From: Salinivirgaceae bacterium
Lineage (GTDB): Bacteria; Bacteroidota; Bacteroidia; Bacteroidales; SZUA-534
Assembly: GCA_017650325.1 (NCBI GenBank)
Contig: JAGCFC010000166.1
Span: forward strand, 1,131-65,130
Reading direction: 5' to 3'
Length of the DNA: 64,000 nt
Shown here one piece after another: positions 3,013 to 41,638 of this stretch. Every line of letters begins with the position of its first letter. The stretch's first letter is position 1. The translations under genes were made by a program, and so were the position numbers. Under the pieces are notes generated by a model. The model was not told where the DNA came from. It ran no database searches and saw only the letters and a program-made list of their open reading frames with translations.

Positions 3013-4848
3013 CTATTTTTTGATGAATTTCAAGGCTGTTGAGCCACCATTGCGATTGATATATACGATATATATTCCTGATTGCAAGTTTGATACGTTT
3101 ATCCGACACTCTTGCGAACTCATAATGGGTTGTCCCATTAAGTTGCAGATGGTCATTAGGCAGTTTTCACCATTCAAGCCATTGATTGTGAGCCAATCGC
3201 TAGCCGGATTCGGATAAACCGACAGTTGGTTTTCTGCATTTTCAGTTTCGGAAATATCGGTGCTCATTGAGCCGAATATCGGACGTAGCATAAGCGAGCC
3301 GGTGAAACTTGTCGGTAGCCATTCGCCGCTTGTGTTGTAGAATATCTTGCTCTGACTGAATCGGTTAACGTCCCAACCAACGTTGAGACGCAGTTTCGAC
3401 GATTGCTGCCAACCCACAAAAATGCCCTTATCGACTTGCAGCGGCTCGCTGAACTCAAAATTCATGAATTGATTCAAGCCGTCGCCGAAATTGGGGCGCA
3501 CAACTTCATCGCAGCGCAACTGGCGGCCAGGTTTGCCGTTGTTGTTTTCCCACGCGCAGATGCTGAACGCATCAGCGGCACTCTCTATCGGGTTTGTTGG
3601 AAGAAAACAGATGCTCAAACCAACAAGTTCGTCGGCCTTGTATGGCGTGTAGAGATAAGCCACTTGCGACGATGCCGCATCCACACCATATGCGTTCTCG
3701 GCTGTGCCGTCATCGTAAGCGTAATAGTTGCCGAAATGCTGATATGTGTAACTGCGATTGTTGCCGGCAATCAATTCATCCTTATCGGTATAAAGTTCAC
3801 ATTCAAATAGATATGTAGCGCTTGTGCGGCCGTCGTGCACAATCGGATTGTCGTCGTAGGCAAACATCCGCTTGTTGTTCTCAAGACCGTCGTAGTTGCC
3901 AGTTCCCATTGTAATTGAGTCTTTTAGATAGACATCGTTATCAACGTCCTTGATGCGGATTCGCACTTCGGCCTTCATTGTGCGGTCCCAATGGTTGCGC
4001 ACGTGAATGTTGAGTCGTGTGTTTTCGGTGTTGATGGCTGACTCGTAGTGTGACCACGGTATCGATGTGAAATTCTTCAAGATAGTGGCTGCCGGTTCCA
4101 CCAGAGCAATGTCGTAAAAGACAGTGTCGTCGGCTGAACGGCCATCATTCAGATATACAAAATCGATGTTCCAATGGTCGCAGTTGATGGTTGCCGACGG
4201 ATTGAAACTTCCCGCCAGGCTCGCATAGTTGAAGAAACGGAACTGGAACTTGTCGGTGAAATATTCCGATTTAGAGATTGGCAGCATCACGAGTGCAAAT
4301 TCCAGAGTGTCAGGCCGGTTTGGCTGAAGATGCAGCACGTTGCTGCGGAAGGTGGCCAAATCGCTTCCTGCCATTGCCCAAAGATTGGTCCACACGCCGT
4401 CGCCCGACGTTATTTGCAAAATAAGCGAGTCGCACACTTCAGGCGCGTTGCCGTTACCTTGCGGCTGATAGTAGAAACTCAGGTATGTCGAAGTGCTGTC
4501 GGCTTTCGAAAGATCGATAGGCTGCGATGTGAGACAGTCGGCCATATAAGGCAGGCTCGATGCTTGCGGGTAGTGCCGTCCGTCGGAATCAATGGCGTCG
4601 AACGTGGCCACGCCCACCGAATACGGATTGATACCGAAAGTGTTGTTAACCCATACACCACGGTCGGTCCAGAGTTGCTGGTCAGGGCTATGGCGGTCGC
4701 CGCTGAAATCATCAATGAACGGCAGTTGCACAGTCGACGAGACGGCCTGCAGCCTGACAGTTTGCTGGCGTGCGGGCGCAAGCGACTCTTGAGCCAACAA
4801 TGGCATTGCACTCAAAATGAGTGCGGCTATTGCAATGATTCTATTCAT
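3013..4848 (-). CDS. Secreted protein with T9SS-type C-terminal sorting domain, function unknown
   Basis: Signal peptide MNRIIAIAALILSAMPLLAQ. The last ~75 aa (LSVYPNPASDWLTINGL..SGIYIVYINRNGGSTALKFIKK) resemble a T9SS type-A sorting tail. I cannot name a motif in the body. Confidence 0.7.
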   Translation of the reverse strand: MNRIIAIAALILSAMPLLAQESLAPARQQTVRLQAVSSTVQLPFIDDFSGDRHSPDQQLWTDRGVWVNNTFGINPYSVGVATFDAIDSDGRHYPQASSLPYMADCLTSQPIDLSKADSTSTYLSFYYQPQGNGNAPEVCDSLILQITSGDGVWTNLWAMAGSDLATFRSNVLHLQPNRPDTLEFALVMLPISKSEYFTDKFQFRFFNYASLAGSFNPSATINCDHWNIDFVYLNDGRSADDTVFYDIALVEPAATILKNFTSIPWSHYESAINTENTRLNIHVRNHWDRTMKAEVRIRIKDVDNDVYLKDSITMGTGNYDGLENNKRMFAYDDNPIVHDGRTSATYLFECELYTDKDELIAGNNRSYTYQHFGNYYAYDDGTAENAYGVDAASSQVAYLYTPYKADELVGLSICFLPTNPIESAADAFSICAWENNNGKPGRQLRCDEVVRPNFGDGLNQFMNFEFSEPLQVDKGIFVGWQQSSKLRLNVGWDVNRFSQSKIFYNTSGEWLPTSFTGSLMLRPIFGSMSTDISETENAENQLSVYPNPASDWLTINGLNGENCLMTICNLMGQPIMSSQECRINVSNLQSGIYIVYINRNGGSTALKFIKK

Positions 4849-7844: not shown

Positions 7845-8794
7845 TCAAAATTTAAGTTAATAGGTTCCATGCCTTTGTTTCCCGAAAGGTCGGCATCGTC
7901 ATGGTTGATAGTTGCGCCGCTGGTTTTGGGCTCAGTGGCGAAAATATTGTCTACAATTTCAATGTGTTTTTCGAATTTCGCATTTGACAGGTTCAGCCCG
8001 CCCAGGAATTTATTTCCGTTGAAACTTGCCGAATTGGCGAATTTGCATTTGGCCATTTTCAGCAGTCCTAAGAATGTCGAATTCTGGAAGTTGACACGTC
8101 CGCCAAACTGAGTGTTGGTGAAGTCGCAAAGTGCGTCAATACGCGTGTTCGAAAAATCGGTGTAACCGCCGATAACAGCATCGGTGAATGTTGCAATGTC
8201 GCCGATGTGGCAGTATTGGAAGTTCACGGCTTCCTTAAAATTCGCTTTCGCGAACGATGTCCGTCTGCTGAGCGATGCGCTCACAAAAAGGGCGTCGCCG
8301 TTAAAGCCTGTTCCCGTAAATGACGAGCCTGCTGTTGAGTTGATGCCGCTGAAGTTGGCCTCACCGTCAACCTTGCAGTCGTAGAAATCGAACCGTCCGC
8401 CGAATTCGGTCTGTTGAAAATCAACGCCTTTGGCAAAAGAGCAGTTGCGGAAAGTCACATTCCGCGAGAAAACGCAGTAAACATTCTGCACACCCTTTCT
8501 CCGCAGATCAAAAGTCGCAACGCTGTCAGCAAACTCGCAGTTGACAAAAACCAACTCGCAGTTGATGTAGACTGGTGCCGTTTCAAGCGCCAGAGCGCCA
8601 GAGCCTGCTTCGGTAAAGTTTAGATTTCCTTCAACGCGCTTGTCATGAATGATGAGCACCGGCTTGTCTTTCATTTTCTTAATAATGTCGGCAGATTTCA
8701 TTGTATTCGAATTGTCGCCCGCTGCAGCCTTGTGGCAACATATCATGCCTGATGAGCATATCAGCGTGAGAATGGCAAGTACTATTTTCCGCAT
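7841..8794 (-). CDS. Exported pentapeptide-repeat protein
   Basis: N-terminal signal or lipoprotein-like sequence (MRKIVLAILTLICSSGMICC), then a long run with 5-residue periodicity (ANFSGINSTAGSSFTGTGFNGDALFVSASL..TDFSNTRIDALCDFTNTQFGGRVNFQNSTF..ASFNGNKFLGGLNLSNAKF). Its stop overlaps the C1 peptidase start (ATGA). Confidence 0.7.
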   Translation of the reverse strand: MRKIVLAILTLICSSGMICCHKAAAGDNSNTMKSADIIKKMKDKPVLIIHDKRVEGNLNFTEAGSGALALETAPVYINCELVFVNCEFADSVATFDLRRKGVQNVYCVFSRNVTFRNCSFAKGVDFQQTEFGGRFDFYDCKVDGEANFSGINSTAGSSFTGTGFNGDALFVSASLSRRTSFAKANFKEAVNFQYCHIGDIATFTDAVIGGYTDFSNTRIDALCDFTNTQFGGRVNFQNSTFLGLLKMAKCKFANSASFNGNKFLGGLNLSNAKFEKHIEIVDNIFATEPKTSGATINHDDADLSGNKGMEPINLNFE

Positions 8795-9807: not shown

Positions 9808-12800
9808 ATGAACAAACCATTATTATGTGCGGCTATCGCTGCAACATTTCTGTTCTGCGCAAACACCAACGCGCAGATTGTGATCAATGAGTACGGCTCG
9901 TCAACATCATCATTTTTAGACGAATACAATGAGGAGTCCGACTGGATTGAACTTTACAACAAGACAGCGTCTGAGGTCGATTTGAACGGTTGGCATCTTA
10001 CGGACAACGAGTCAAACCTGGCTAAATGGACGTTCCCATCGGTGAAAATTCCGGCCAACGGATTCCTGTTGGTTATGGCGTCGGGCAAAAACCTGACCGA
10101 AGTGGCCGAAGGCAAGTATCTGCACACAAACTTTAACATTTCGTCGGATGGCGAGGCTATTTTTTTGGTTAACGCTGCCGACAGCATTGTGCATCAGGCC
10201 GACTCTGTGCCAGTGCCATGCAATGCCAGTCGGGGTTTGAGCCCCGATGGTGGCGACAATTGGGTGTTTTTTGTTGAGCCGACACCAAACAAGGCGAACA
10301 CCACAAAGGCTTACGCCACATCGGCAACCACAAGCGTGAAATTTTCGCCCGAAGGAGGTTGCCAGAAGGCAGCATTGACAGTGACTCTTACCGCCGAAGG
10401 TAATGCACCAATATATTACACGCTCGACTGCACGGAACCAACCGACACTTCGTTGCTCTATACCGGCCCGATAACGGTTGACTCAACAACGGTAATCCGC
10501 GCCATCACATTTAACGAGGATTTGATGCCCGGCCAGCCATCGACGCAGAGTTACATCTTCCCCGGAAGATTGCATTGGCTTGACCGCGACATGCAAGGCA
10601 ACCTCTACGATACAGTGACGGGATATGCTCTTAATGACGGCATTGATTATGACATGCTTATGGAGCATCTCCAAAATGGCGGTAGTATATTGGACTATTG
10701 TCACGATACAACCATAGTCTATGACCCTCACATTGCAATGGAGCATCCAACGCAGTTTACTCTGCCTGTGGTTTCTCTGACAACCAACCCTTTTAATTTA
10801 TGGGATTCCGTATCGGGCATTTATGTGCTTGGGCGCAATTTTGAGCCGACAGAACCGTATTACGGAGCCAATTTCCATCAGGATTGGGAGCGCCCTGTCC
10901 ACGTTGAGCTTTATTGGACCGATGGTTCGAAACGTCTCGATCAGGATGCGGGACTTCAGATTGCTGGCGCCTGGAGTCGGAGCAACGACCAGAAATCGTT
11001 CTCGCTGCACGCCCGCAACGCTTATGGAAAGAAGTATTTCGAGGCGAAATTGTTCGATGAACTCGACATTGCACAGTTCAAGGCGTTTGTTCTGCGCGAT
11101 TCGGGCAACGACTTTGGCAGTACCCACTTCCGTGATGCAATGATTACGCACCTTATAGCTGGTAACAATATTGATATTCAGGCATATCAGCCAGCTATTG
11201 TATATCTGAACGGTGAGTATTGGGGCATTCTGAACATGCGCGAAAAGTTGAATGAACACTATGTCGAGAACCACTATCCGCACGTCGACCATGACAAGGT
11301 GGATCTGCTTGTTGGAAAAGGAGCTGGCGTAACTGCATCGGAAGGTGACGTGGACGCATATAATGCGATGATGGACTTTATCAAGTCACACGACCTGGCC
11401 GATGGAGCCAACTACCAGAAGGTGGCTGCCCAAATGGAGATTGATGAGTATATAGAATATTTAGTAACGGAGATTTATGGTGGAAACGATGACTGGCCGC
11501 ACAACAATGTGAAGCTGTGGAAATCGAAGAAGAACGGCGGCCGCTGGCGCTGGATGCTTTACGACACCGACCAATCGTATGACATTTGGGAACGCGATGA
11601 AGACCTTCCAACTTACGACAAATTGGAAAAATGCTTGTCGGAATTAGGCAAAAACGGTGATACATGGTCTAATGTGCTGTTGCGCAATTTGGTGAAAAAC
11701 ACAACGTTCCGCAATGAGCTTTCAAACCGTTTTGCCGACCGCATGAATCGTGAGTTCCTTCCCGAGAATGTTAATCATCTGATTGATAGTCTTAAAGGAA
11801 ACATATCATCGGAAATCAACTTCCACAATAACCGCTGGTATATAGGCAGTTACGACGAAAAAGTCAACAGGATGAAAGACTTTGCAAAAAAACGCCCCAG
11901 CAATATGCGTAAGCATCTGCGCAAGCATTTCGATGTGGGTGATGATGTGGTTGTAACACTCAGCGAGAACGACAGCAAGGCTGGCTATATTCAAATCAAC
12001 TCGCTGACACTTAAATCGTTCCCGTGGAACGGCAGTTATTTTAAGAACGTTCCGGTCAAACTGAGGGCTGTGGCACGGCCAGGCTACAAGTTTGTGCGTT
12101 GGGAGAACGCCGACGAGAATGATACCATTAGCACCAATGCGGGAATTGAGCTCACTCTGAACTGCAACGCTACGGTTAACGCCGTTTTTGAAAAAGACAA
12201 CGAATCGTTGTATAACAGTGTGGTTATAAACGAGATAAACTACAAGTCGGCTGATGATTTTGACACTAAGGACTGGATTGAACTTTACAACACCACTTCG
12301 GCGGCAATCAATGTTTCGGGTTGGAAAATCAGCGATGAGAAACCCGATGAAATGTTCACAATTCCGGCTGGCACAATCATTGAGCCTTATGGTTATCTGG
12401 TGGTTTGTGCAAATCAGAACAAGTTGCTCAAATTTAATCCCGAAGTGATTAATTATGTTGGTGATTTCGAATTCGGGTTGGGCAAAGATGACAAAGTTCA
12501 ATTGTTTGATTCCGAAGGCCTTCTTATCGATGAAGTTGCTTATTCGAAATCGTGGGGCGATGCCAACGGTACCGGTCGTACATTGGCTCTGACCGATCCG
12601 TTTGCCGAAAACAACCAGAGCAAAGTGTGGAACGACAATGATGTACACGGCACACCTGGAGCGCAAAACGGATTGTTTAAACCATCGCGGAACGATTTCA
12701 GCATTAATGAGAAGGTTACCATCAATAAAAAGGAGACACCAGAGGAAATTACAGGTATAGAGGATGCGGAAATTGCATCTGTGTCAGTTGTTTGCTACCC

Positions 12801-13041
12801 GAACCCGACAAACGGTCAGGCCACACTTGAGTGGTCGCAGACGGGCGATGCAAATGTGAGGATAGAGTTGTTCAACGTTTATGGAAATAGTCTGGCACAA
12901 ATCTGCAATGGCTGGTTTGCTCAAGGTAGTCACGACATCGATATCAGCCATATTACTGGCAACTTGGCTGCTGGATTGTATTTCGCTAAAATATCAATCG
13001 ATGGTCAGCCGTTGACTAACTTGAAGATTATGAAACAGTAA
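9808..13041 (+). CDS. LTD-CotH-LTD protein with T9SS C-terminal sorting domain (paralog 1)
   Basis: Signal peptide. Lamin-tail-like module (VINEYGSS..DWIELYNKT..GWHLTD..WTFPSV). Chitobiase/hexosaminidase-C-like module (PIYYTLDCTEPTDTSLLYTGPITVDSTTVIRAITF). CotH-like core (LRDSGNDFGSTHFRDAMITHL..IDIQAYQPAIVYLNGEYWGILNMREK..GGNDDWPHNNVKLWKSKKNGGRWRWMLYDTDQSY). Second LTD (VVINEINYKSADDFDTKDWIELYNTT). T9SS-like tail (VVCYPNPTNGQATL..AGLYFAKISIDG..KIMKQ). Confidence 0.8.
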   Translation: MNKPLLCAAIAATFLFCANTNAQIVINEYGSSTSSFLDEYNEESDWIELYNKTASEVDLNGWHLTDNESNLAKWTFPSVKIPANGFLLVMASGKNLTEVAEGKYLHTNFNISSDGEAIFLVNAADSIVHQADSVPVPCNASRGLSPDGGDNWVFFVEPTPNKANTTKAYATSATTSVKFSPEGGCQKAALTVTLTAEGNAPIYYTLDCTEPTDTSLLYTGPITVDSTTVIRAITFNEDLMPGQPSTQSYIFPGRLHWLDRDMQGNLYDTVTGYALNDGIDYDMLMEHLQNGGSILDYCHDTTIVYDPHIAMEHPTQFTLPVVSLTTNPFNLWDSVSGIYVLGRNFEPTEPYYGANFHQDWERPVHVELYWTDGSKRLDQDAGLQIAGAWSRSNDQKSFSLHARNAYGKKYFEAKLFDELDIAQFKAFVLRDSGNDFGSTHFRDAMITHLIAGNNIDIQAYQPAIVYLNGEYWGILNMREKLNEHYVENHYPHVDHDKVDLLVGKGAGVTASEGDVDAYNAMMDFIKSHDLADGANYQKVAAQMEIDEYIEYLVTEIYGGNDDWPHNNVKLWKSKKNGGRWRWMLYDTDQSYDIWERDEDLPTYDKLEKCLSELGKNGDTWSNVLLRNLVKNTTFRNELSNRFADRMNREFLPENVNHLIDSLKGNISSEINFHNNRWYIGSYDEKVNRMKDFAKKRPSNMRKHLRKHFDVGDDVVVTLSENDSKAGYIQINSLTLKSFPWNGSYFKNVPVKLRAVARPGYKFVRWENADENDTISTNAGIELTLNCNATVNAVFEKDNESLYNSVVINEINYKSADDFDTKDWIELYNTTSAAINVSGWKISDEKPDEMFTIPAGTIIEPYGYLVVCANQNKLLKFNPEVINYVGDFEFGLGKDDKVQLFDSEGLLIDEVAYSKSWGDANGTGRTLALTDPFAENNQSKVWNDNDVHGTPGAQNGLFKPSRNDFSINEKVTINKKETPEEITGIEDAEIASVSVVCYPNPTNGQATLEWSQTGDANVRIELFNVYGNSLAQICNGWFAQGSHDIDISHITGNLAAGLYFAKISIDGQPLTNLKIMKQ

Positions 13042-13064
13042 GGTTTCTAATAATGACATATTGG

Positions 13065-13105
13065 CAAACGGCGGTTCGATTATCGGGCTGCCGTTTGTTA
13101 TTTTG
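13065..13105 (+). terminator. Rho-independent terminator after CotH paralog 1
   Basis: Stem CAAACGGC / GCCGTTTG (13065-13072 / 13090-13097) followed by TTATTTTG. Confidence 0.6.
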
Positions 13106-13186
13106 AGTTTTTCCCGCCACAAAGGCCATTCGTAGTCTGAAAAGGTTTTTATGTATAAAAAAACTTCCTATTTGTTTTTGTTTGTC

Positions 13187-13194
13187 TACTTTTG
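13187..13194 (+). promoter_or_regulatory. Candidate -7 promoter box (TACTTTTG)
   Basis: TAnnTTTG match 38 nt upstream of ATG 13233. Confidence 0.45.
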
Positions 13195-13232
13195 GCCGTT
13201 TTTAACGCACGTGGGTGCATAAAGAAACTGAT

Positions 13233-16200
13233 ATGAATAAACATTTGAAACATTGTGTGGCTTTTGCCGCAACTCTTTTTTTCGGGATTAGTGTTAATGC
13301 GCAGGTGGTAATCAACGAGTATTGCTCGAGTACCACGATACATCAGGATGAGGACAAGGCGAACTCCGATTGGATTGAACTTTACAATACAACCGATTCG
13401 GAAGTAAGCCTTAAAGGTTGGCATTTGTCAGACAAATCCGATAATGTCGCCAAGTGGACATTTCCCGATGTCAGTCTGCAGCCGAAGGCTTTTATGCTGA
13501 TTTATGCTTCAGGAAAAGATCGTGCTGTTGCAGGAAAGCCGTTGCATACCAATTTTAACATATCGACCGACGGCGAGACTGTTTACCTTTCGGATGCCAA
13601 TGGAAATATCATCCACAAGACAGACAGCATTTCTGTTCCGAACAATGCAAGTCGGGGACTTTTCCCTGACGGTAGTAGCAATTGGGTCTTTTTCGCCTCA
13701 CCAACACCTGATTCGGCCAACACAACCAAAACTTACGCAACAACCAAAACAAGCACAGTCGAAATTGAGCCGTGTGGCGGAGTATTCACTACACCTGTAA
13801 CCGTAACGCTGAAGACAAGCGGCAACACTCCAATCTATTACACGCTCGACTGCACCGTTCCTACTGCTGCCGACAGTCTGCTCTACACAGGTCCGATAAC
13901 CATCGATTCGACAACAGTTGTACGTGCTATCACTTTCGATGACAATTTGATGCCCGCGCAGCCGACAACCCAATCTTATATTTTCGGCAGCAAGTTGCGC
14001 TGGGTTAATCGTGACAAACAAGGCAAGCCCATTACAACCGAAACCCGCTGGGTTAGTGATAACAACGGCGGCGGTGGAGGCGGCTGGGGCTGGGGTGGCT
14101 GGGGTGGCCATAACGAAACCGTTACAGTCGACCCGGTAAAATACATCGAGCACGGTGAATCTTTCGCATTGCCGGTTGTTTCGCTCACAATGGAGCCTGA
14201 CGATTTATGGGATTATAACACGGGTATGTATGTTGAGGGACCGAACGCTAATCTGAATGCAACTCCGCGTCGCGCAAACTATTACAACGATTGGGAAAAG
14301 CCCGTCCACATTGAGCTTTATTGGACAGACGGGCGTCAGGTACTTTGCCAGGATGCTGGTGTTCAGATTTCAGGCGCATACAGCCGTATGAACGACCAGA
14401 AATCGATGGCGATGCATGCGCGCAAGGCTTACGGGGCAAAATATTTCGATGCAAAACTTTTCGACGAACTCGATCTGACACGTTTTAAGTCGTTTACATT
14501 GCGTGATTCAGGTAACGATTTTGGAAATACCCATTTCCGCGACGCCATGATAACTCATCTTGTAGATGGTAATAACATTGATATTCAAGCATATCAGCCT
14601 GCGGTTGTATTCCTGAACGGAGAGTATTGGGGAATTTTGAACATGCGCGAGAAACTGAATGAAGATTATATCGAAAACCACTATCCGCATGTAAGTGCCG
14701 ACAATGTTGACATAATGGCTGCAAGCGATGTTACAAAGAGCATTACGGCATCGGAGGGCGACGATGTTGACTATAACGCCATGATTAGCTATGTCAAATC
14801 GAATGATATGACCAACGATGCTTGTTACCAGCATGTTTCAACGCTTATCGACATTGATGAATATATTGAGTATATGGTGTCGGAGATTTACGGTTCAAAT
14901 AACGATTGGCCGCATAACAACATAAAGATTTGGAAGTCGAAGAAGCGTGGAGGTCGTTGGCGTTGGTTCTTGTATGATACCGACCAGTCGTATTCGATTT
15001 GGGGAGATCAGTCTGGCGATGACAAATTGGGCACTTGCCTCGAGGAGAAGGATACTCATGGTAACACATGGGCAAATGTCCTGTTCCGCAATCTTACAAA
15101 GAGCGAGAAGTTCCGCAACGCGCTTGCCAATCGTTTTGCCGATCGCATGAACAACGAATTTCTGGCCAAGAATGTCAATCATCTGATTGATAGCTTGTAT
15201 GGAAACATAGCGGATGAAATAGGCTATCATAATTCACGCTGGGGCAAAAGCCTTAACAACGGGCAGGGAATGAAAGATTTCGCGAAAAACCGTCCGAAAA
15301 ACATGCGCAGCCATTTGCGCAAGCACTTTGATGTGGGAGAGGACGTCAAGGTAACGCTTTATGCTAACGACGCCAAGGCCGGTTATGTACAGCTAAATTC
15401 GCTCACACTGAAGAGCTTTCCGTGGAGCGGCACATATTTCAAAAATGTGCCAATCTCAATTCGCGCGATAGCTCGTCCGGGCTATAGGTTTGTACGTTGG
15501 GAGGATGACAATAAAGGTGAGAACACTCATGCTGGAATTAGCGTGAAACTTAATGGCGCAATGTCGTACACGGCAATATTCGAAAAGGATGATGCCAATT
15601 ACAACAGTGTGGTTATTAACGAGATAAACTTTAAATCGTCGGCCGATTACGACACTAAAGACTGGATTGAACTTTACAACACAACAGCAGCTGCCATCGA
15701 TATTTCGAACTGGGTAATTTCAGACGATAAACAGGAGGATGCATACAAAATTCCTGGTGGAACAATCATTCCTCCGTATGGTTACATTGTTGTTTGTGAG
15801 AATTTGAGCAAGATGCTTAAGTACAATCCGAATCTTGTGAATGCAGTTGGTGATTTCCAATTTGGGTTGAGCAAAGCCGATTTGGTGCGTCTGAAGGATT
15901 CTGAAGGTAATCTAATTGACGAAGTTGAGTACGATAGTGGCAAAAACTGGCCCGATGCCAATGGCAATGGTTACACAATGGCGCTTGTTGATCCGTTTGC
16001 CGATAATGAGCGCGTTCTGGCGTGGGGCGAAGATGAAATGTATGGTACTCCGGGTAGCGAAAACGGAATTTTCACTCCCTCACACGATGATTTCAGCATT
16101 AGTGACAACAGTTTCAATATTATCACGGATGTGAACGAGAAACCGGAGGTTGAGGTTTATGCGGCGTGCTATCCTAATCCGTTCGTTGGAGATGCGGCCA

Positions 16201-16415
16201 TTGTTTGGGAGCAGACCGCTGACGCCGACGTGGTTGTTGAATTGTATGCTGCCAGTGGCCGTAAATTGGCAACAGTTGCTGATGGCATGTATTCGATTGG
16301 GGAACATGTTGTAAATATAGGCAGCATTGCCGGTAATTGGTCTAAAGGCTTGTATTTTGCTAAAATAACCATTGTTGGACAAAAACCCGTCATTATAAAA
16401 ATGATAAAGCAGTAA
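13233..16415 (+). CDS. LTD-CotH-LTD protein with T9SS C-terminal sorting domain (paralog 2)
   Basis: Same architecture as paralog 1 (VINEYCSS..DWIELYNTT..GWHLSD; PIYYTLDCTVPT..YTGPITIDSTTVVRAITF; LRDSGNDFGNTHFRDAMITHL..LNGEYWGILNMREK; NNDWPHNNIKIWKSKKRGGRWRWFLYDTDQSY; VVINEINFKSSADYDTKDWIELYNTT; ACYPNP..GLYFAKITIVG). Track GTG start 13215 trimmed to ATG 13233 (MNKHLKH..). Confidence 0.8.
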   Translation: MNKHLKHCVAFAATLFFGISVNAQVVINEYCSSTTIHQDEDKANSDWIELYNTTDSEVSLKGWHLSDKSDNVAKWTFPDVSLQPKAFMLIYASGKDRAVAGKPLHTNFNISTDGETVYLSDANGNIIHKTDSISVPNNASRGLFPDGSSNWVFFASPTPDSANTTKTYATTKTSTVEIEPCGGVFTTPVTVTLKTSGNTPIYYTLDCTVPTAADSLLYTGPITIDSTTVVRAITFDDNLMPAQPTTQSYIFGSKLRWVNRDKQGKPITTETRWVSDNNGGGGGGWGWGGWGGHNETVTVDPVKYIEHGESFALPVVSLTMEPDDLWDYNTGMYVEGPNANLNATPRRANYYNDWEKPVHIELYWTDGRQVLCQDAGVQISGAYSRMNDQKSMAMHARKAYGAKYFDAKLFDELDLTRFKSFTLRDSGNDFGNTHFRDAMITHLVDGNNIDIQAYQPAVVFLNGEYWGILNMREKLNEDYIENHYPHVSADNVDIMAASDVTKSITASEGDDVDYNAMISYVKSNDMTNDACYQHVSTLIDIDEYIEYMVSEIYGSNNDWPHNNIKIWKSKKRGGRWRWFLYDTDQSYSIWGDQSGDDKLGTCLEEKDTHGNTWANVLFRNLTKSEKFRNALANRFADRMNNEFLAKNVNHLIDSLYGNIADEIGYHNSRWGKSLNNGQGMKDFAKNRPKNMRSHLRKHFDVGEDVKVTLYANDAKAGYVQLNSLTLKSFPWSGTYFKNVPISIRAIARPGYRFVRWEDDNKGENTHAGISVKLNGAMSYTAIFEKDDANYNSVVINEINFKSSADYDTKDWIELYNTTAAAIDISNWVISDDKQEDAYKIPGGTIIPPYGYIVVCENLSKMLKYNPNLVNAVGDFQFGLSKADLVRLKDSEGNLIDEVEYDSGKNWPDANGNGYTMALVDPFADNERVLAWGEDEMYGTPGSENGIFTPSHDDFSISDNSFNIITDVNEKPEVEVYAACYPNPFVGDAAIVWEQTADADVVVELYAASGRKLATVADGMYSIGEHVVNIGSIAGNWSKGLYFAKITIVGQKPVIIKMIKQ

Positions 16416-16436
16416 GCCTGTTTTTAGTTTTGACAC

Positions 16437-16470
16437 AACGGCAGTCGGATTTCTGGCTGCCGTTTTTTTA
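16437..16470 (+). terminator. Rho-independent terminator after CotH paralog 2
   Basis: Stem AACGGCAG / CTGCCGTT (16437-16444 / 16457-16464) followed by TTTTTTA. Confidence 0.65.
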
Positions 16471-16548
16471 TGATAAATCTTATGAAAAAGAAGATCTAAT
16501 TGCCAGTGGTTGGACTTATCTGCTGAATACCCGACTCTAATAGTTGTT

Positions 16549-16556
16549 TATATTTG
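16549..16556 (+). promoter_or_regulatory. Candidate -7 promoter box (TATATTTG)
   Basis: TAnnTTTG match 17 nt upstream of ATG 16574. It lies inside the track's TTG-extended ORF, which argues for the shorter gene model. Confidence 0.5.
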
Positions 16557-16573
16557 CGGTAGTTATTTTAGAT

Positions 16574-19500
16574 ATGAAGAGAATAGTATTGTCAGTTTTG
16601 GTATTGGCGTTGACAACCATTAATGCCGGTGCGCAGGTGGTGATTAACGAGTATTGCCCCTCCACATCGGTGATGGCTGATGAGGATGGTGACACTTCCG
16701 ACTGGCTCGAACTTTACAACAGTGGTAGTGGGGAAGTGAATCTTCAAGGTTGGCATTTGTCTGACAGGATGGACAATTTGGCAAAGTGGACATTCCCGGC
16801 TGTGACAATGCCACCGCAGTCTTATCTGCTTGTATATGCGTCAGGTAAGGACAGATATGAATATGAGGCAGGTAAGAAAACATATATGAGCCCGCTCATA
16901 AAATGGGGCGATGAATTTGCTTATGCAATCGGCTCTGACACAATCCGGAAAAACTGGTATTCGATTGGATATAACGATTCTAAATGGTTGAGAGGCAAAA
17001 GTGGTTTCGGTTATGGAAACAAAAATGTCGCAACTCAAGTACCAAGTGGCACAATGTCTATTTTTGTACGTAAGAAATTCAATGTCAGTAACTTGTCCGA
17101 CATTGTTCAACTGATACTCGATTTGGATTATGATGACGGGTTTGTTATTTATATCAATGGAAAAGAGGTGGCTCGAGAGAATTTGGGAAGCAAAGGTGTC
17201 GATCCGTCGTACGCTGAGGCAACCCCCGACTATGTCAATCCGCTGTTGAGTAATTCGCAGCCTACTAAGCGGATTATTCTTAACAATTTTACTGATTATT
17301 TGGTTGAGGGAGAGAATCTTTTTGCCGCAAGGATTCACAACATTTCAGAAACATCAAGTGACCTTCTTCTCATACCGTTTCTCACTATCAGCACAACACA
17401 GCCGGGAAATGAAACTGTCGATGATGTGCTGAATCTGAAAGGAACAATTACGGGCAAATATTTGCACACCAATTTCGGTTTCTCTTCTGATGGCGAAGTG
17501 GTTTATCTGAGCGATTCCACTGGTAGAATTGTCCATCAGACCGACCGCACTGCTGTGCCCCATAATGTGTCGCGTGGATTGGCCAATGACGGATCCGGAA
17601 GCTGGCTTTTTTTCACTGAACCAACGCCTGGATTACCCAATTCAACAAAGTCTTTCCCGACAGCTGAAACCGCTTATGTACGCATTGAGCCAACAGGGGG
17701 CTTGTATAACTCAACTGTCATGGTTTCAATGGTTTCCAATATCGAGGGGCCGATATATTATACAACCGATGGCACGGAACCAACAATGGAATCAGCTGTC
17801 TATTCAGAGCCGATAGAAGTGTCGTCTACCACAATCTTCCGTGCTATATCGTACTGCGACACACTGCTGCCTATGATGCCTGCAACGCAATCGTATCTGT
17901 TCGCCAATCACGAAATAACACTGCCGGTTTTTTCGCTCGTAACCGACCCTTACAATCTGTTCGACTATAATTACGGCATATATGCCGATGGTCCGAATGC
18001 TGAGGCTGCGGATCCACACTATGGAGCCAATTACCACAAAGACTGGGAGCGTCCTCTGCACGTTGAACTTTTTTGGCCGGACGGCACAACAAAAATCTGT
18101 CAGAATGCGGGGGTTAAGATTGCGGGGGCGTGGAGTCGGGCATGGGCGCAGAAATCGTTCGCTATTCACGCGCGTAATGCGTACGGCAACAATATGTTCG
18201 AATGTAAATTGTTCGGTGACAAGGATATATCTGAATTCAAGTCGTTCGTTCTCCGTAATTCGGGAAACGATTGGTATAGCACTATGTTTCGCGATGCGCT
18301 GATTACAAGACTGGTTCGTAATAATAACATTGACATTCAAGCATATCAGCCATCAGTGGTTTACCTGAACGGTGAATATTGGGGTATTCTGAACATCAGA
18401 GAGAAGATTAATGAGCATTATGTGGCTAACAATAACAATTGGGTTGATGCGGATAATGTTGATTTACTAGAGACTAACGGAACCAGAATTCATGGTGAGG
18501 CAAAACATTACAATGCGGTAAAAAGCTATCTGAACTCGCATTCGATGTATAGTACTGACAATTATAATTACATCGCGACACAGATAGACATCGACGAATT
18601 TATTGAGTATATGGTGCTTGAGATATATTGTAACAATGGCGACTGGCCGGGGAACAATTGTAAATTTTGGCACCCCCAAGTTGAAGGTGGCCGTTGGCGT
18701 TGGATAGCTTACGATACCGATTTTGGTTTCGGACTCTATTCCAGCGGCTACGATGAGGATAATTTAGGCTCGTGTATGCAAAATACATCGGGACCTGCTT
18801 TTGTGCTCAACAAACTTTTGGGGAACGCAACTTTTAAACGCAATTTCGTTAACCGTTTCGCCGACCGCATGAACCGTGAATTTAAGGCCGGCGTTGTTAA
18901 TTCGTTGATTGACAGTTTGTCCAGTGTCATTTCCAGTGAGATTGTTTACCACAATAACAGGTGGCATGCCATTGGTAGTTGGAAGAATAATATTGCGGAC
19001 ATGAAAACCTTTGTCAGTGGTCGGCCGGGACAAATGAGGCAGTTCATCCGTAACAATCTGTCGGTGGGTTCGAATGTCACTATTACTGTTGATGTCAGTG
19101 ACGAAGAGGGTGGTTATGTGCAGTTGAACAGTCTTGCTATTAAAGAATTCCCATGGAGCGGCATCTATTTCTCGAACAATCCGATAACTATTAGCGCTAT
19201 AGCCAGACCTGGCTATGAGTTTGTTGGTTGGAAAGAAAAAGGAGATGTTAATCCTGAACTGATGCTTGCAGTTAAGAAGAATACAACTTTCACAGCAGTT
19301 TTCGAGAAAAGCGATGTAAAGTATAATTCCATTGTAATCAATGAAATAAATTATAAGTCGGAGGATGGACAGGACACAAAAGATTGGGTGGAACTATTCA
19401 ATACAACAGCGGCAGATATCGACATTTCTGACTGGATGCTGACAGATGCCACTCGACTTAAAGATTATATAATGCCTAAAGGAACAAAAGTTCCTGCATA

Positions 19501-20107
19501 TGGTTATCTGGTTGTATGTGAGAATAAAAGCAAGTTTATGCGGTTTTGGCCGGAGTTGACCAACGTTGTCGGTAATTTCAAATTCGGATTGAAATCACAA
19601 GGTGCTGTGCTGTTATATGACGCTGATGGTAATTTGATTGATGATGTAGAGTATGACAATAAATCACCATGGCCGAAACAAGCTGATGGTGACGGATATA
19701 CTCTGTCGTTGGCCGATCCGTTTGCCGACAATTCGTTTGCATGGCAGTGGGAGAGTCCGACACTGTTCGGAACGCCTGGAGCGCAAAATGATAATTACAT
19801 TGGTATGCCTCTTTCGGTAGATGACTCAACTGCATCCTTTATGACTCAACCATTCGCCATGTGCTGTCCTAATCCATTTGACAATAATGCTGAGATATGC
19901 TGGAGCCAGGATGCTGGAGCCAATGTGCGGATTGAGATTATATCGGCTCAAGGGCGGGTTTTGGCCGATTTGGGGCGAAAATGGTATGCCGGGGGTGATC
20001 ATTCCATCAACATAACAGATGCTGTCAAATGGCAGACTGGTTTGTATTTCGCCAAAATAGCTATTGATGGCTGCCAACCGTTGGTAATCAAAATTCTAAG
20101 ACAATAG
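16574..20107 (+). CDS. LTD-CotH-LTD protein with T9SS C-terminal sorting domain (paralog 3, with nested extra module)
   Basis: Same architecture (VINEYCPS..DWLELYNSG..GWHLSD; PIYYTTDGTEPT; LRNSGNDWYSTMFRDALITRL..LNGEYWGILNIREK; GDWPGNNCKFWHPQVEGGRWRWIAYDTDFGFG; IVINEINYKSEDGQDTKDWVELFNTT; MCCPNP..GLYFAKIAIDG) plus a ~200-aa insertion in the first LTD. Start set at ATG 16574 (MKRIVLSV..). Confidence 0.8.
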   Translation: MKRIVLSVLVLALTTINAGAQVVINEYCPSTSVMADEDGDTSDWLELYNSGSGEVNLQGWHLSDRMDNLAKWTFPAVTMPPQSYLLVYASGKDRYEYEAGKKTYMSPLIKWGDEFAYAIGSDTIRKNWYSIGYNDSKWLRGKSGFGYGNKNVATQVPSGTMSIFVRKKFNVSNLSDIVQLILDLDYDDGFVIYINGKEVARENLGSKGVDPSYAEATPDYVNPLLSNSQPTKRIILNNFTDYLVEGENLFAARIHNISETSSDLLLIPFLTISTTQPGNETVDDVLNLKGTITGKYLHTNFGFSSDGEVVYLSDSTGRIVHQTDRTAVPHNVSRGLANDGSGSWLFFTEPTPGLPNSTKSFPTAETAYVRIEPTGGLYNSTVMVSMVSNIEGPIYYTTDGTEPTMESAVYSEPIEVSSTTIFRAISYCDTLLPMMPATQSYLFANHEITLPVFSLVTDPYNLFDYNYGIYADGPNAEAADPHYGANYHKDWERPLHVELFWPDGTTKICQNAGVKIAGAWSRAWAQKSFAIHARNAYGNNMFECKLFGDKDISEFKSFVLRNSGNDWYSTMFRDALITRLVRNNNIDIQAYQPSVVYLNGEYWGILNIREKINEHYVANNNNWVDADNVDLLETNGTRIHGEAKHYNAVKSYLNSHSMYSTDNYNYIATQIDIDEFIEYMVLEIYCNNGDWPGNNCKFWHPQVEGGRWRWIAYDTDFGFGLYSSGYDEDNLGSCMQNTSGPAFVLNKLLGNATFKRNFVNRFADRMNREFKAGVVNSLIDSLSSVISSEIVYHNNRWHAIGSWKNNIADMKTFVSGRPGQMRQFIRNNLSVGSNVTITVDVSDEEGGYVQLNSLAIKEFPWSGIYFSNNPITISAIARPGYEFVGWKEKGDVNPELMLAVKKNTTFTAVFEKSDVKYNSIVINEINYKSEDGQDTKDWVELFNTTAADIDISDWMLTDATRLKDYIMPKGTKVPAYGYLVVCENKSKFMRFWPELTNVVGNFKFGLKSQGAVLLYDADGNLIDDVEYDNKSPWPKQADGDGYTLSLADPFADNSFAWQWESPTLFGTPGAQNDNYIGMPLSVDDSTASFMTQPFAMCCPNPFDNNAEICWSQDAGANVRIEIISAQGRVLADLGRKWYAGGDHSINITDAVKWQTGLYFAKIAIDGCQPLVIKILRQ

Positions 20108-20914
20108 ACAGCCTTCAGGTGTGGCTGGTTCAGATGGTTGCACAACCGGGATTTTTTGGAAGGCCTTAATAGCGCAGAGTGTTACTAAGGCGCATATAAT
20201 TAGAATAATAGCGTGGTTCATTGGCCCTCCAAAATAGTCAGTTATCGATGTGTTCATGTCGCCAGAAAGGTAGCCTAGAAGGAAACCGGCAGTATTGTTG
20301 GCCCAATGCATGAAAATTCCAATCCAGATGCTGCGTGTGCGCCAGAAAAGCCATCCCATGGCGCATCCGATGATGAATGCCGCGATGAACTGCCATGGGT
20401 TGAGGTGTGCGATGCCGAAAATCACAGCCGACCATATTATTGCTTTGCGAGGCTCGTAGCGGCGTAACAATGCCGCCAGAATAATGCCGCGGAACAGCCA
20501 CTCCTCAAGAAACGGAGCAATGATACCAACAGTCAGATAACCAGCAAAATCCAGCGATATTGCTTCGCTGAAAATCTTTGCCACAAAATCGGGCATCGGA
20601 ATCAGCGAGCAGATCGATTCGCTGATTATCGATAAGGCGAATGTCATTAGCAACGCAATTGGGAATAATATCAGTTTTACTTTTTTATAATCAGTAACTT
20701 TCAGATTCCAAACAAAATACACAACAGCAAGTGTCGCGGCAAATTGCAGAATGTAGCCGAACATGACTATCCACGATTTCAAGTTTGGAGCGGCAACCAG
20801 AAGGGTGCTTGTTGCAAGAGTGGCGGGTATGGTCATAACAATGGTTATGCCCAAAATGGCAAAAGCCCGACCTATTGTTATGGAGTTATCTGTTTGTGAT
20901 ATTGTGTTTTCCAT
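20096..20914 (-). CDS. CPBP family intramembrane glutamic endopeptidase (CAAX protease/Abi-like)
   Basis: Polytopic membrane protein carrying the three CPBP motifs: EEWLFR (EExxxR), FGIAH (FxxxH) and HWANN (HxxxN). Its ATG overlaps the NfeD stop (TAATG). Its 3' end overlaps the convergent CotH paralog 3 by 12 nt. Confidence 0.8.
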   Translation of the reverse strand: MENTISQTDNSITIGRAFAILGITIVMTIPATLATSTLLVAAPNLKSWIVMFGYILQFAATLAVVYFVWNLKVTDYKKVKLILFPIALLMTFALSIISESICSLIPMPDFVAKIFSEAISLDFAGYLTVGIIAPFLEEWLFRGIILAALLRRYEPRKAIIWSAVIFGIAHLNPWQFIAAFIIGCAMGWLFWRTRSIWIGIFMHWANNTAGFLLGYLSGDMNTSITDYFGGPMNHAIILIICALVTLCAIKAFQKIPVVQPSEPATPEGCLLS

Positions 20915-28712: not shown

Positions 28713-29139
28713 ACAAAAGTTTTTGTTAATTATTAAATAGATTAGTCACCGGCTGGCGAATTCCTAGAATCCACCAGTTTATCTTGAAAAATGTTGTTGT
28801 TGCATACATAGTCACATTTCGAAGTACGAATTTCCGAAATGCCTTTTGTATCCTACTAAAAATGTGTTTCATATTTTTTCTTGTTTGTAACATCTTTTTT
28901 TATTTTTGTTACAAAATTTTTCAATAACATAACATTATCGGTAATTATGTTGTTGAATAATAGATCGATAAAGATTTTTAAAGGTACTTTTTAACTTTAT
29001 AACAAATGGAGAGAGTGTTGCAAGACTGCGAAATGCAAGCGCAAAGCGGATTAGAGGGTGTAATTCATCATTTTGGGTGTTTTTTTGGCCACGCACGACC
29101 ACTACCTCCAAGTGTTATTGTTTTATTGAAGCATGTCGT

Positions 29140-33243: not shown

Positions 33244-33506
33244 GATTTAATCAATTTGCAAACGTTTGTTTTTGATTAATGATATAATAGATATATTGTT
33301 TTGTTTTATAAATAATTAAATGAAAATAATGTTACATTGAGATAAAAAAAAGTAACAATTTTGTGTACTTTTTGTAACATTTGGAGAAAAAAATGTCTCA
33401 TTTGTGAAAAATGGTATGAAATACATTTATAATCTTTGGGGCGTTGCATAAGGCAAAAATGCATTTATGTGAAAGTGACTATAAACATTTAATAACCAAA
33501 CATTTT

Positions 33507-36674: not shown

Positions 36675-36685
36675 TGCTTGAACCG

Positions 36686-41612: not shown

Positions 41613-41638
41613 TGTCTGATTTAATTAAGAATTGAGAT

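What the first reader, a model, noticed from the sequence alone, without database searches (positions are those of the whole stretch)
9808..20107. Tandem array of three paralogous LTD-CotH-LTD giant proteins with T9SS sorting tails (candidate surface-displayed atypical kinases)
Three consecutive same-strand genes (1077, about 1060 and about 1177 codons) share one architecture, read directly from the translations. The order is: signal peptide; lamin-tail-like module (VINEY..DW(I/L)ELYN..GWHL(T/S)D..WTFP); chitobiase/hexosaminidase-C-like module (PIYYT.D.T.PT..Y(T/S).PI.(V/I).S.T); CotH-like core (R(D/N)SGND..FRDA(M/L)IT.L..IDIQAYQP..V(Y/F)LNGEYWGILN(M/I)REK..DWP.NN.K.W..GGRWRW..YDTD); second lamin-tail module (V(V/I)INEIN(Y/F)KS..KDW(I/V)EL(Y/F)NTT); and a T9SS-type tail (CYPNP/CCPNP..GLYFAKI). 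Paralogs 2 and 3 have their own TAnnTTTG box, and paralogs 1 and 2 have their own hairpin plus T-run terminator. They therefore look like independent units rather than one operon. From established knowledge, CotH proteins are atypical protein kinases in the Bacillus spore coat, and CotH-family proteins act as host-cell invasins in Mucorales. A T9SS tail implies export across the outer membrane and usually surface anchoring. As far as I know, a triplicated T9SS-exported CotH array has no assigned function. Together with 3013..4848, this puts four T9SS cargo genes in the first 20 kb of the window.
Basis: partly seen in the sequence, partly recalled or inferred. Interest (0 to 1): 0.7.

Follow-up and report, generated by a model that had tools for sequence, protein, structure and literature searches.

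The report
Three secreted CotH kinase-like surface proteins
A rumen Bacteroidales bacterium carries three side-by-side copies of a large exported protein built around a kinase-like "CotH" core with intact catalytic residues; this belongs to a very common, already annotated family whose function outside the cell is still unknown.

Summary
Window 9808-20107 carries three same-strand paralogous genes of 1077, 1060 and 1177 codons. The CotH core matches Pfam at E 1e-44 to 1e-49. It also matches the Bacillus cereus CotH kinase structure (Foldseek E 9e-12, TM 0.75; profile E 7e-10). The catalytic Asp and Asn and the metal-binding Asp are present in all three paralogs and invariant across five or more phyla (motif NDDWPHNN...D). 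Paralog 3 also carries a 197-residue GH2-N-like jelly roll nested inside LTD1; it matches no Pfam family and appears to be the ancestral state. The array START-CotH1-CotH2-CotH3-CPBP protease is conserved in rumen Salinivirgaceae MAGs, so the triplication is old. The family is very large (4104 clusters at 50% identity with E<=1e-30) and NCBI already names it "CotH kinase family protein". Other Bacteroidota members also carry T9SS tails. In clostridia and rumen fungi the same module sits on dockerins in cellulosomes, with no defined function. Verdict: a real, correctly read, new member of a known but functionally unsolved kind. Extracellular kinase activity and its substrate remain inferred. 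Interest is moderate.

The parts
9808..13041 (+). Paralog 1 (CotH1), 1077 aa. Layout: signal peptide 1-23 (cleavage ...NA/QIVINEY), LTD1 ~24-160, CHB_HEX_C/Fn3_assoc 181-249, small insert 253-315, CotH core ~316-712, InlB-B-repeat 742-797, LTD2 ~798-955, low-confidence linker, T9SS CTD 997-1077.
   Evidence: AF2 model has mean pLDDT 82.7. Foldseek matches 5jd9/5jda at E 9e-12 with TMt 0.75, and lamin tail 3gef at TMt 0.64.
13233..16415 (+). Paralog 2 (CotH2), 1060 aa from ATG 13233 (the ORF opens at GTG 13215). Same architecture as paralog 1. It has a Gly/Trp-rich low-complexity stretch (GGGGGGWGWGGWGG) in the small insert before the CotH core.
16574..20107 (+). Paralog 3 (CotH3), 1177 aa from ATG 16574 (the ORF opens at TTG 16544). 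Same architecture, plus a jelly-roll domain nested in LTD1 and without the small pre-CotH insert. Its catalytic loop reads NGDWPGNN.
16859..17449 (+). 197-aa beta jelly roll (galactose-binding-domain-like, GH2-N-like) inserted between strands of LTD1 of paralog 3. Conserved residues include GFGYG and DYDDG.
   Evidence: No Pfam or PDB sequence hit. AF2 model has pLDDT 92. Foldseek matches the N-terminal sugar-binding domains of GH2 glycosidases and a rhamnosidase, E 2e-6 to 1e-4, prob 1.0. The domain is present in all outgroup homologs and in Verrucomicrobiota and Planctomycetota LTD-CotH genes.
10753..11943 (+). CotH kinase-like core of paralog 1 (aa 316-712). The catalytic loop N560-D561-D562-W-P-H-N566-N567 is encoded at 11485-11508. 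The metal-binding Asp D586 is at 11563-11565. The candidate ATP-binding Lys K396 lies in the QKS motif.
   Evidence: Pfam CotH E 4e-46. A profile of diverse cores matches 5jd9 at E 6.8e-10; it aligns NDDWPHNN to Bc NFDGFVHN and YDTD to Bc WDYD. Invariance across 30 diverse sequences.
14361..15305 (+). CotH Pfam match of paralog 2 (aa 377-691). Catalytic loop NNDWPHNN, followed by YDTD.
18113..19027 (+). CotH Pfam match of paralog 3 (aa 514-818). Catalytic loop NGDWPGNN, followed by YDTD.
12778..13038 (+). T9SS type-A C-terminal sorting domain of paralog 1. The equivalents are 16170-16412 in paralog 2 and 19868-20104 in paralog 3.
   Evidence: TIGR04183 scores 34.8 / 27.2 / 26.5 bits against a cut-off of 23. 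The model shows a seven-strand beta sandwich. Foldseek finds a PorU match.
13062..13100 (+). Intrinsic terminator after paralog 1: 18-bp stem followed by a T run.
   Evidence: One search gives -26.4 kcal/mol, z -7.0.
16437..16464 (+). Intrinsic terminator after paralog 2: 12-bp stem followed by T7. Its sequence is related to the first terminator.
   Evidence: One search gives -19.9 kcal/mol, z -6.6.
13187..13194 (+). TACTTTTG, a Bacteroidota -7-type box 39 nt upstream of the paralog 2 ATG. A second box, TATATTTG, lies at 16549-16556, 18 nt upstream of the paralog 3 ATG.
   Evidence: The positions are suggestive, but the motif count in the window equals the chance expectation.

Best explanation
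The three genes are separately transcribed paralogs of one secreted enzyme family. Each product is exported by Sec. All three have a signal peptide ending ...A/Q, which fits the Gln often seen at the mature N-terminus of signal peptidase I substrates in Bacteroidota. Each folds in the periplasm and is then passed through the type IX secretion system by its type-A C-terminal domain. The tail is removed, and the protein is either attached to the cell surface or released. Outside the cell, a set of beta-sandwich modules holds a CotH-type atypical kinase domain against a polymeric target. The modules are two lamin-tail domains, a chitobiase-C-like domain and an InlB-B-repeat, plus a GH2-N-like jelly roll in paralog 3. 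The CotH domain keeps the full catalytic signature and most likely transfers phosphate from a nucleotide to that target, which may be a protein or a glycan on plant fibre or on cell surfaces. This is the Bacteroidota (T9SS) counterpart of the dockerin-borne LTD/CotH proteins of clostridial and rumen-fungal cellulosomes. The paralogs have subfunctionalised. CotH3 keeps the ancestral jelly roll and has Gly at position 565 of the catalytic loop. CotH1 and CotH2 lost the jelly roll, gained a small insert and carry His at 565. Shown here: gene structure, domain architecture, fold, conservation of catalytic residues, age and conservation of the array, family size and distribution. Inferred: actual T9SS export, surface anchoring, phosphotransfer activity, phosphate donor and substrate.
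For: Architecture comes from Pfam and NCBIfam. The CotH fold matches 5jd9/5jda at Foldseek E 9e-12, TMt 0.75, and a profile-to-sequence search gives E 6.8e-10. P1 D562/N567 align with the Bc CotH D...N of NFDGFVHN, and D586 aligns with the first D of WDYD. The spacing matches B. subtilis D228 and D251, whose mutation inactivates the kinase (PMC7821199). N560, D562, W563, P564, N566, N567 and D586 are invariant in 30 cores from Bacteroidota, Verrucomicrobiota, Fibrobacterota, Bacillota, Planctomycetota and Campylobacterota, and in all ~119 close homologs. The N-terminal half of the CotH core is the most conserved region within each orthogroup. The jelly-roll fold of the paralog 3 insert is supported. 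In relatives the same cassette is joined to Malectin, LRR or Big_2 modules and to T9SS tails. The array is conserved in seven species-level rumen Salinivirgaceae genomes, counting the window, and each paralog forms its own orthogroup. There are strong terminators between the genes. The nearby genes fit a plant-glycan degrader: a BD-FAE esterase, three SusC/SusD pairs and an HTCS regulator. Cellulosomal CotH and LTD-LTD-Fn3-CotH dockerin proteins are documented but have no defined function.
Against: No biochemical data exist for any T9SS-tailed or LTD-linked CotH protein, and no open paper links CotH with T9SS. [quoted passage not shown] The ATP-binding Lys could not be placed by a residue-level structural superposition. 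K396 is only a motif-level assignment, and the HMM alignment edge is shifted there. Paralogs 2 and 3 fall below the Pfam cut-off for the tail model. No T9SS machinery gene lies in the window. No conserved partner or substrate gene accompanies the family across phyla.
Confidence: 0.6

Rival explanations
1. The proteins are non-catalytic adhesins or structural proteins. The CotH fold and the flanking beta sandwiches only bind plant cell wall or other surfaces. This matches what has been speculated for cellulosomal CotH ('possibly structural protein CseP', 'plant cell wall binding').
For: Literature speculation is summarised. The proteins carry many binding-type modules. Energy-rich phosphate donors are scarce outside the cell.
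Against: A purely structural role does not explain the absolute invariance of the catalytic-loop Asp/Asn and the metal-binding Asp across more than five phyla and thousands of clusters. Pseudokinases normally lose these residues.
Confidence: 0.15
2. The enzymes are active, but the substrate is not a protein. They would be glycan- or small-molecule-directed phosphotransferases, as Fam20B, POMK, WaaP and Kdo kinase are within the same kinase-like superfamily. Alternatively they would be nucleotide-processing enzymes acting on extracellular nucleotides.
For: The CotH core is always fused to a chitobiase-C-like module. It is also fused, variably, to a GH2-N-like jelly roll, Malectin and other carbohydrate-associated modules. 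The host is a glycan degrader. CotH is reported as distantly related to the Fam20 secretory-pathway kinases (PMC7821199). That Fam20B, POMK, WaaP and Kdo kinase are sugar kinases is from established knowledge and was not tested here.
Against: The only characterised CotH enzymes, from Bacillus, phosphorylate Ser in proteins. No carbohydrate binding has been shown for LTD or CHB_HEX_C modules in these proteins. This rests entirely on domain context.
Confidence: 0.2
3. The proteins are host-cell invasins or ligands like the Mucorales CotH proteins, which bind a host receptor.
For: They share only the CotH fold and a surface location.
Against: The organism is a rumen-lumen commensal clade. The family is spread through free-living aquatic and soil phyla. 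Sequence identity to any characterised CotH is about 15%.
Confidence: 0.03

Closest known systems
Bacillus CotH spore-coat Ser/Thr kinase (B. cereus structures 5JD9/5JDA; B. subtilis CotH)
   Same: Same Pfam family (PF08757) and same fold (TMt 0.75). The catalytic Asp-x4-Asn and the downstream metal-binding Asp are in the same register.
   Different: Sequence identity is about 15%. Bacillus CotH is a ~360-aa single-domain protein that works inside the mother cell, where ATP is available, on the CotB and CotG repeats. The window proteins are ~1100-aa secreted multidomain proteins with no CotB- or CotG-like neighbour. Their catalytic loop is NDDWPHNN rather than NFDGFVHN.
Cellulosomal CotH proteins: C. 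thermocellum CseP (Cthe_0044) and Cthe_0239 (LTD, LTD, Fn3, CotH + dockerin), R. cellulolyticum Ccel_1101, and dockerin-CotH proteins of rumen anaerobic fungi
   Same: These are extracellular CotH modules, some with LTD and Fn3-type modules, displayed on the surface of anaerobic plant-fibre degraders including rumen organisms. Their function is undefined.
   Different: They are anchored by a dockerin to a scaffoldin, whereas the window proteins carry a T9SS type-A tail and no dockerin. I did not have their sequences, so membership of the same subfamily (NDDWPHNN loop) was not tested.
T9SS-tailed 'CotH kinase family proteins' of other Bacteroidota (e.g. Lunatimonas L015, Paludibacteraceae L016, Taishania L019, Marinilabiliales P0099-P0120)
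   Same: They share the LTD / CHB_HEX_C / CotH cassette and the Por_Secre_tail. The ~1175-aa form with the nested jelly roll equals paralog 3.
   Different: The one such relative whose genomic context was examined is single-copy. The three-gene array, with two jelly-roll-less derivatives, is specific to the rumen Salinivirgaceae clade.
Fam20-family secretory-pathway kinases (Fam20C, Fam20B)
   Same: They are kinase-like enzymes that act outside the cytosol on secreted substrates. CotH is reported as distantly related to them (PMC7821199).
   Different: They are eukaryotic and Golgi-lumenal. No direct similarity was detected here. This is an analogy only.

Membership tests
CotH atypical kinase family (PF08757) | Significant full-length match to the family HMM | tested here: met
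   E 4e-46, 9e-44 and 1e-48; model positions 1-322 covered; 150-167 bits against a cut-off of 23.8.
CotH atypical kinase family (PF08757) | Kinase-like fold of B. cereus CotH | tested here: met
   The AF2 model of paralog 1 against PDB gives 5jd9/5jda as top hits, E 9e-12, prob 1.00, TM (target) 0.75. Only paralog 1 was modelled full length.
CotH atypical kinase family (PF08757) | Catalytic Asp (B. subtilis D228) with Asn five residues downstream | tested here: met
   P1 D562/N567 align to the Bc D...N of NFDGFVHN. Both are present in all three paralogs and invariant in 30 diverse and ~119 close homologs.
CotH atypical kinase family (PF08757) | Metal-binding Asp (B. subtilis D251) | tested here: met
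   P1 D586 (YDTD) aligns to the first Asp of Bc WDYD. The spacing to the catalytic Asp is 24 against 23, with a one-residue gap. It is invariant in the diverse set.
CotH atypical kinase family (PF08757) | ATP-binding Lys in the N-lobe | tested here: inconclusive
   K396 (QKS motif) is the candidate. It is invariant in close homologs, and Lys sits at 395 or 396 in 27 of 30 diverse cores. It resembles the Bc KKSY motif. However, the HMM alignment edge is shifted there, model coordinates could not be inspected, and the paper that defines the residue was not available.
CotH atypical kinase family (PF08757) | Protein Ser/Thr kinase activity | not testable with these tools
   Needs an in vitro assay.
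T9SS type-A cargo | C-terminal type-A sorting domain (TIGR04183 / PF18962) at the very C-terminus | tested here: met
   TIGR04183 scores 34.8, 27.2 and 26.5 bits against a cut-off of 23, and the match ends at the last residue. Pfam is above its cut-off only for paralog 1. The model shows a beta sandwich.
T9SS type-A cargo | N-terminal Sec signal peptide | tested here: met
   By inspection only, since no predictor was available. Each has a basic N-terminus, a hydrophobic core and a ...(N/G)A/Q cleavage context. The model shows helix 4-18 at low pLDDT.
T9SS type-A cargo | T9SS machinery (PorU/V, SprA etc.) in the same genome, and actual secretion with tail cleavage | not testable with these tools
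   No such genes lie in the 64-kb window. One further cargo gene is present at 3013-4848.
Lamin tail domain (PF00932) | HMM match and Ig-like fold of the lamin tail | tested here: met
   Two stretches per protein, 119-136 bits against a cut-off of 34.3. Foldseek matches lamin A/C 3gef and lamin B1 3jt0 at TMt 0.64-0.66.
Cellulosomal (dockerin-borne) CotH proteins | Type I dockerin module for cohesin binding | tested here: not met
   No dockerin family appears among the Pfam hits for any paralog. These proteins are a functional analogue, not a member.
Mucorales CotH invasins | Host-receptor (GRP78) binding motif and fungal cell-surface anchoring | not tested
   No fungal sequences were available. 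The context (rumen commensal, pan-environmental family) argues against it.

The most novel reading that the evidence does not exclude
The LTD / CHB_HEX_C / CotH cassette is an extracellular glycan-directed kinase. The carbohydrate-type modules (jelly roll, chitobiase-C-like, Malectin in relatives) would dock it on plant cell-wall or microbial surface polysaccharide, and the CotH domain would phosphorylate the polymer to loosen, tag or capture it. That would explain why the same module was recruited into cellulosomes, T9SS cargo and giant verrucomicrobial surface proteins. The three paralogs would then target different polymers.
Probability: 0.12. Interest if true: 0.8.

Novelty: new member of a known kind. 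Interest (0 to 1): 0.4.

Why it matters
Secreted CotH modules are abundant in fibre-degrading gut microbes. About 20% of dockerin proteins in anaerobic fungi carry one, they sit among the five most abundant Pfam domains in anaerobic-fungal proteins, and this survey found thousands of bacterial clusters. Nobody knows what a kinase-like enzyme does outside the cell. This locus shows that rumen Bacteroidales display the same catalytic cassette through the T9SS. It also shows that the catalytic signature is under strict selection across phyla, and that one lineage has kept three diverged copies for a long time. That supports a real extracellular enzymatic role. It also offers natural comparison material for assays: the presence or absence of the jelly roll, and His versus Gly in the catalytic loop. 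The locus does not by itself reveal the substrate or make the open question newly testable.

Tried and rejected
- Single-sequence phmmer of paralog 1 and of its core against PDB found no CotH. A family profile was needed: a 30-sequence close set gave E 0.041 and a diverse-core set gave E 6.8e-10.
- The papers that define the CotH active site (Nguyen 2016) and that characterise fungal cellulosomal CotH (Lillington 2023) are not held. The residue roles rest on PMC7821199 and on alignments.
- The paralog 3 insert gave no Pfam hit at E<=10 and no meaningful PDB sequence hit. Only structure prediction plus Foldseek identified it.
- I looked for a conserved partner or substrate gene. From memory, VTC/DUF4956 genes sit next to some CotH genes. 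None is in the window, none is beside the single-copy relative P0117, and no neighbour family is shared across phyla in 79 loci.
- Recent gene conversion between paralogs is rejected. DNA identity peaks at 77-82% over short stretches.
- Literature searches for CotH with T9SS or type IX secretion returned nothing relevant.
- The TAnnTTTG boxes are not statistical evidence for promoters, because the count equals the chance expectation.
- Antisense ORFs inside the genes (e.g. 11806-12666, 286 aa) were treated as spurious and not pursued.


Full report
**1. What is there**

ORF listing and translation confirm three consecutive + strand genes:
- paralog 1 at 9808-13041, 1077 aa;
- paralog 2 at 13233-16415, 1060 aa from the ATG (the ORF opens at GTG 13215);
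- paralog 3 at 16574-20107, 1177 aa from the ATG (the ORF opens at TTG 16544).

The Pfam tail model exceeds its cut-off only in paralog 1. NCBIfam TIGR04183 (T9SS type-A sorting domain) exceeds its cut-off in all three, and the match ends at the last residue.

Each protein starts with a typical signal peptide that ends ...(N/G)A/Q(I/V)VINEY. This was read by inspection; no predictor was available. The Gln at the predicted mature N-terminus fits what is commonly seen for signal peptidase I substrates in Bacteroidota (established knowledge).

Identity in the CotH core is 66% (1 vs 2), 54% (1 vs 3) and 51% (2 vs 3).

**2. Transcription units**

The two strongest terminator-like sites in the region lie just after paralogs 1 and 2:
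- 13062-13100, -26.4 kcal/mol, z -7.0;
- 16437-16464, -19.9 kcal/mol, z -6.6.

Their sequences resemble each other, so they probably duplicated along with the genes. Nothing comparable follows paralog 3. Its last 12 nt overlap a convergent CPBP/Rce1-like protease gene at 20096-20914.

The motif occurs 49 times in the window against 49.3 expected, so only their position is suggestive. Independent units is the better reading.

**3. The CotH core**

Single-sequence searches against PDB fail. A profile of 30 cores from several phyla hits B. cereus CotH (5jd9) at E 6.8e-10 over chain residues 52-357.

An AF2 model of full-length paralog 1 has mean pLDDT 82.7. Its top Foldseek matches are 5jd9 and 5jda, at E about 1e-11 and target TM 0.75. 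It also matches lamin tails (TM 0.64-0.66) and PorU.

The profile alignment places:
- P1 N560-D-D562-W-P-H-N-N567 on Bc N-F-D-G-F-V-H-N;
- P1 Y-D586-T-D on Bc W-D-Y-D.

The two B. subtilis inactivating mutations D228Q and D251A (PMC7821199) are 23 residues apart, which matches this spacing.

In the diverse set, N560, D562, W563, P564, N566, N567 and D586 are invariant. They are also kept in all ~119 close homologs.

The Lys is less certain. K396 (QKS) is invariant nearby, and Lys sits at 395 or 396 in 27 of 30 diverse cores. It resembles the Bc KKSY motif. I could not verify it structurally, and the source paper was not available.

**4. Differences between paralogs**

Paralog 3 has a 197-aa insert (window 16859-17449) between strands of LTD1. 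It has no Pfam or PDB sequence match. A pLDDT-92 model matches the N-terminal sugar-binding jelly roll plus Ig arrangement of GH2 glycosidases, and a rhamnosidase (E 2e-6 to 1e-4, prob 1.0).

Paralogs 1 and 2 lack this insert. They carry instead a 45-60 aa insert before the CotH core; in paralog 2 it is partly Gly/Trp low-complexity sequence.

A neighbour-joining tree of 119 homologs shows that all outgroups (~1170-1200 aa) carry the jelly roll. The CotH3 form is therefore ancestral, and the CotH1+CotH2 clade is a derived, jelly-roll-less duplicate that duplicated again.

The jelly roll is also detectable in Verrucomicrobiota and Planctomycetota LTD-CotH genes.

The catalytic loop differs systematically. 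The CotH1 and CotH2 groups have DWPHNN, which is the pan-phylum consensus and also carries the His of Bacillus CotH. The CotH3 group and the Marinilabiliales-type outgroups mostly have DWPGNN.

**5. Source organism and conservation of the array**

The closest genomes are Salinivirgaceae (Bacteroidales) MAGs from buffalo, sheep and yak forestomachs, at 72-75% identity.

The order START-like / CotH1 / CotH2 / CotH3 / CPBP protease(-) / NfeD(-) recurs in six of them (L002, L003, L005, L009, L010, L012). Other states also occur:
- two loci have CotH1+CotH2 only (L008, L013);
- one has a CotH2-like gene plus CotH3 (L011);
- two carry a CotH1 ortholog alone in another context (L004, L007).

DNA identity between the window's paralogs never exceeds about 80% over short stretches. 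The duplications are therefore old and there is no recent gene conversion. Within each orthogroup the N-terminal half of the CotH core is the most conserved segment.

**6. The wider family**

The core alone finds 10,588 clusters at 50% identity with E<=1e-3, and 4,104 at E<=1e-30. NCBI names these proteins 'CotH kinase family protein'.

The CHB_HEX_C-CotH cassette recurs across phyla with varied additions:
- Malectin plus a T9SS tail in Lunatimonas;
- T9SS tails in Paludibacteraceae and Taishania;
- LRR in Oscillospiraceae;
- Big_2 in Lachnoclostridium;
- five LTDs in a MAG labelled Akkermansia muciniphila.

Tandem copies also occur in Fibrobacter and Verrucomicrobiota loci. No neighbouring gene is shared across phyla, and a single-copy relative on a 3.9-Mb contig stands alone.

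**7. Literature**

No open paper links CotH with T9SS. Extracellular CotH modules are, however, a recognised puzzle in cellulosomes:
- C. thermocellum has CseP, and Cthe_0239 with LTD, LTD, Fn3, CotH plus dockerin (PMC6083626).
[quoted passage not shown] - A 2025 review lists structural or kinase-regulatory roles as open possibilities (PMC12484212).

**8. Interpretation**

The best-supported reading is that these are T9SS-exported, surface-displayed or released multidomain enzymes. A catalytically competent CotH phosphotransferase domain is positioned by binding modules on an extracellular polymer.

They are the Bacteroidota analogue of dockerin-borne CotH proteins. They are not members of that group, because they have no dockerin.

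The strict conservation of the catalytic residues argues against a purely adhesive role. The consistently carbohydrate-type companion modules keep open a glycan rather than a protein substrate. Export, anchoring, donor, substrate and activity are all inferred.

The rest of the window fits a plant-glycan degrader: a BD-FAE esterase, three SusC/SusD pairs and a hybrid two-component regulator. No gene there is demonstrably linked to the array.

**9. Verdict**

The object is a new member of a large, already annotated, widely distributed but functionally unsolved family, with a lineage-specific three-gene expansion. Interest is moderate. The locus gives useful comparative handles but no new mechanism.

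Noticed in passing
window 16859-17449 (paralog 3 aa 96-292); also L040, L042, L077, L080 and many other loci: A ~190-aa jelly-roll domain with conserved GFGYG and DYDDG motifs is nested inside an LTD. It matches no Pfam family, yet it recurs in LTD-CotH proteins of Bacteroidota, Verrucomicrobiota and Planctomycetota. It is a candidate uncatalogued carbohydrate-binding-like module.
   Followed up: partly
window 11485-11508, 14898-14921, 18635-18658 (catalytic-loop codons of the three paralogs): The catalytic loop differs systematically between orthogroups. CotH1 and CotH2 have DWPHNN, the pan-phylum consensus. CotH3 and the Marinilabiliales-type relatives have DWPGNN. This may be a specificity or activity switch.
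   Followed up: partly
window 10564-10752 and 13989-14159 (roughly): Paralogs 1 and 2 have a 45-60 aa insert between CHB_HEX_C and the CotH core that paralog 3 and all outgroups lack. In paralog 2 it contains the run NNGGGGGGWGWGGWGGH.
   Followed up: no
window 6045-8794: A papain-family (C1) peptidase gene and a pentapeptide-repeat gene lie between the PASTA-domain gene and the START-like gene. In nine related Salinivirgaceae loci those two genes are adjacent, and L011 has different genes at the same spot. This looks like a variable insertion point.
   Followed up: partly
window 20096-20914 (- strand): A CPBP/Rce1-like intramembrane glutamic protease gene converges on paralog 3 and overlaps it by 12 nt. 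It travels with CotH3 in related genomes. Its best NCBIfam hits, all below cut-off, include proteases that process C-terminal sorting signals (MrtJ, MrtS). No link to the T9SS tails is shown.
   Followed up: partly
window 13062-13100 and 16437-16464: The two inter-paralog terminators share sequence (AACGGCRG...GGCTGCCGTTT). They seem to have been copied with the gene duplications.
   Followed up: no
window 3013-4848 (- strand): A 611-aa T9SS type-A cargo whose first ~530 residues match no Pfam or NCBIfam family. It is conserved at 68-85% identity in the related MAGs.
   Followed up: no
window 22515-45097: A polysaccharide-utilisation region holds a BD-FAE-type esterase, three SusC/SusD pairs (25482-28712/23607-25469, 33444-38638, 38679-43486), a hybrid two-component AraC-type regulator (29077-33243) and a BT_3987-like/DUF5627 surface protein (43505-45097). 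No glycoside hydrolase was recognised within it.
   Followed up: partly
L024 (Fibrobacter), L029, L077 and other loci: Tandem arrays of two or three CotH genes also occur in Fibrobacter and Verrucomicrobiota. The Fibrobacter copies have lipoprotein-like N-termini (…LLCACSNSE). Local amplification of secreted CotH genes is therefore recurrent.
   Followed up: no
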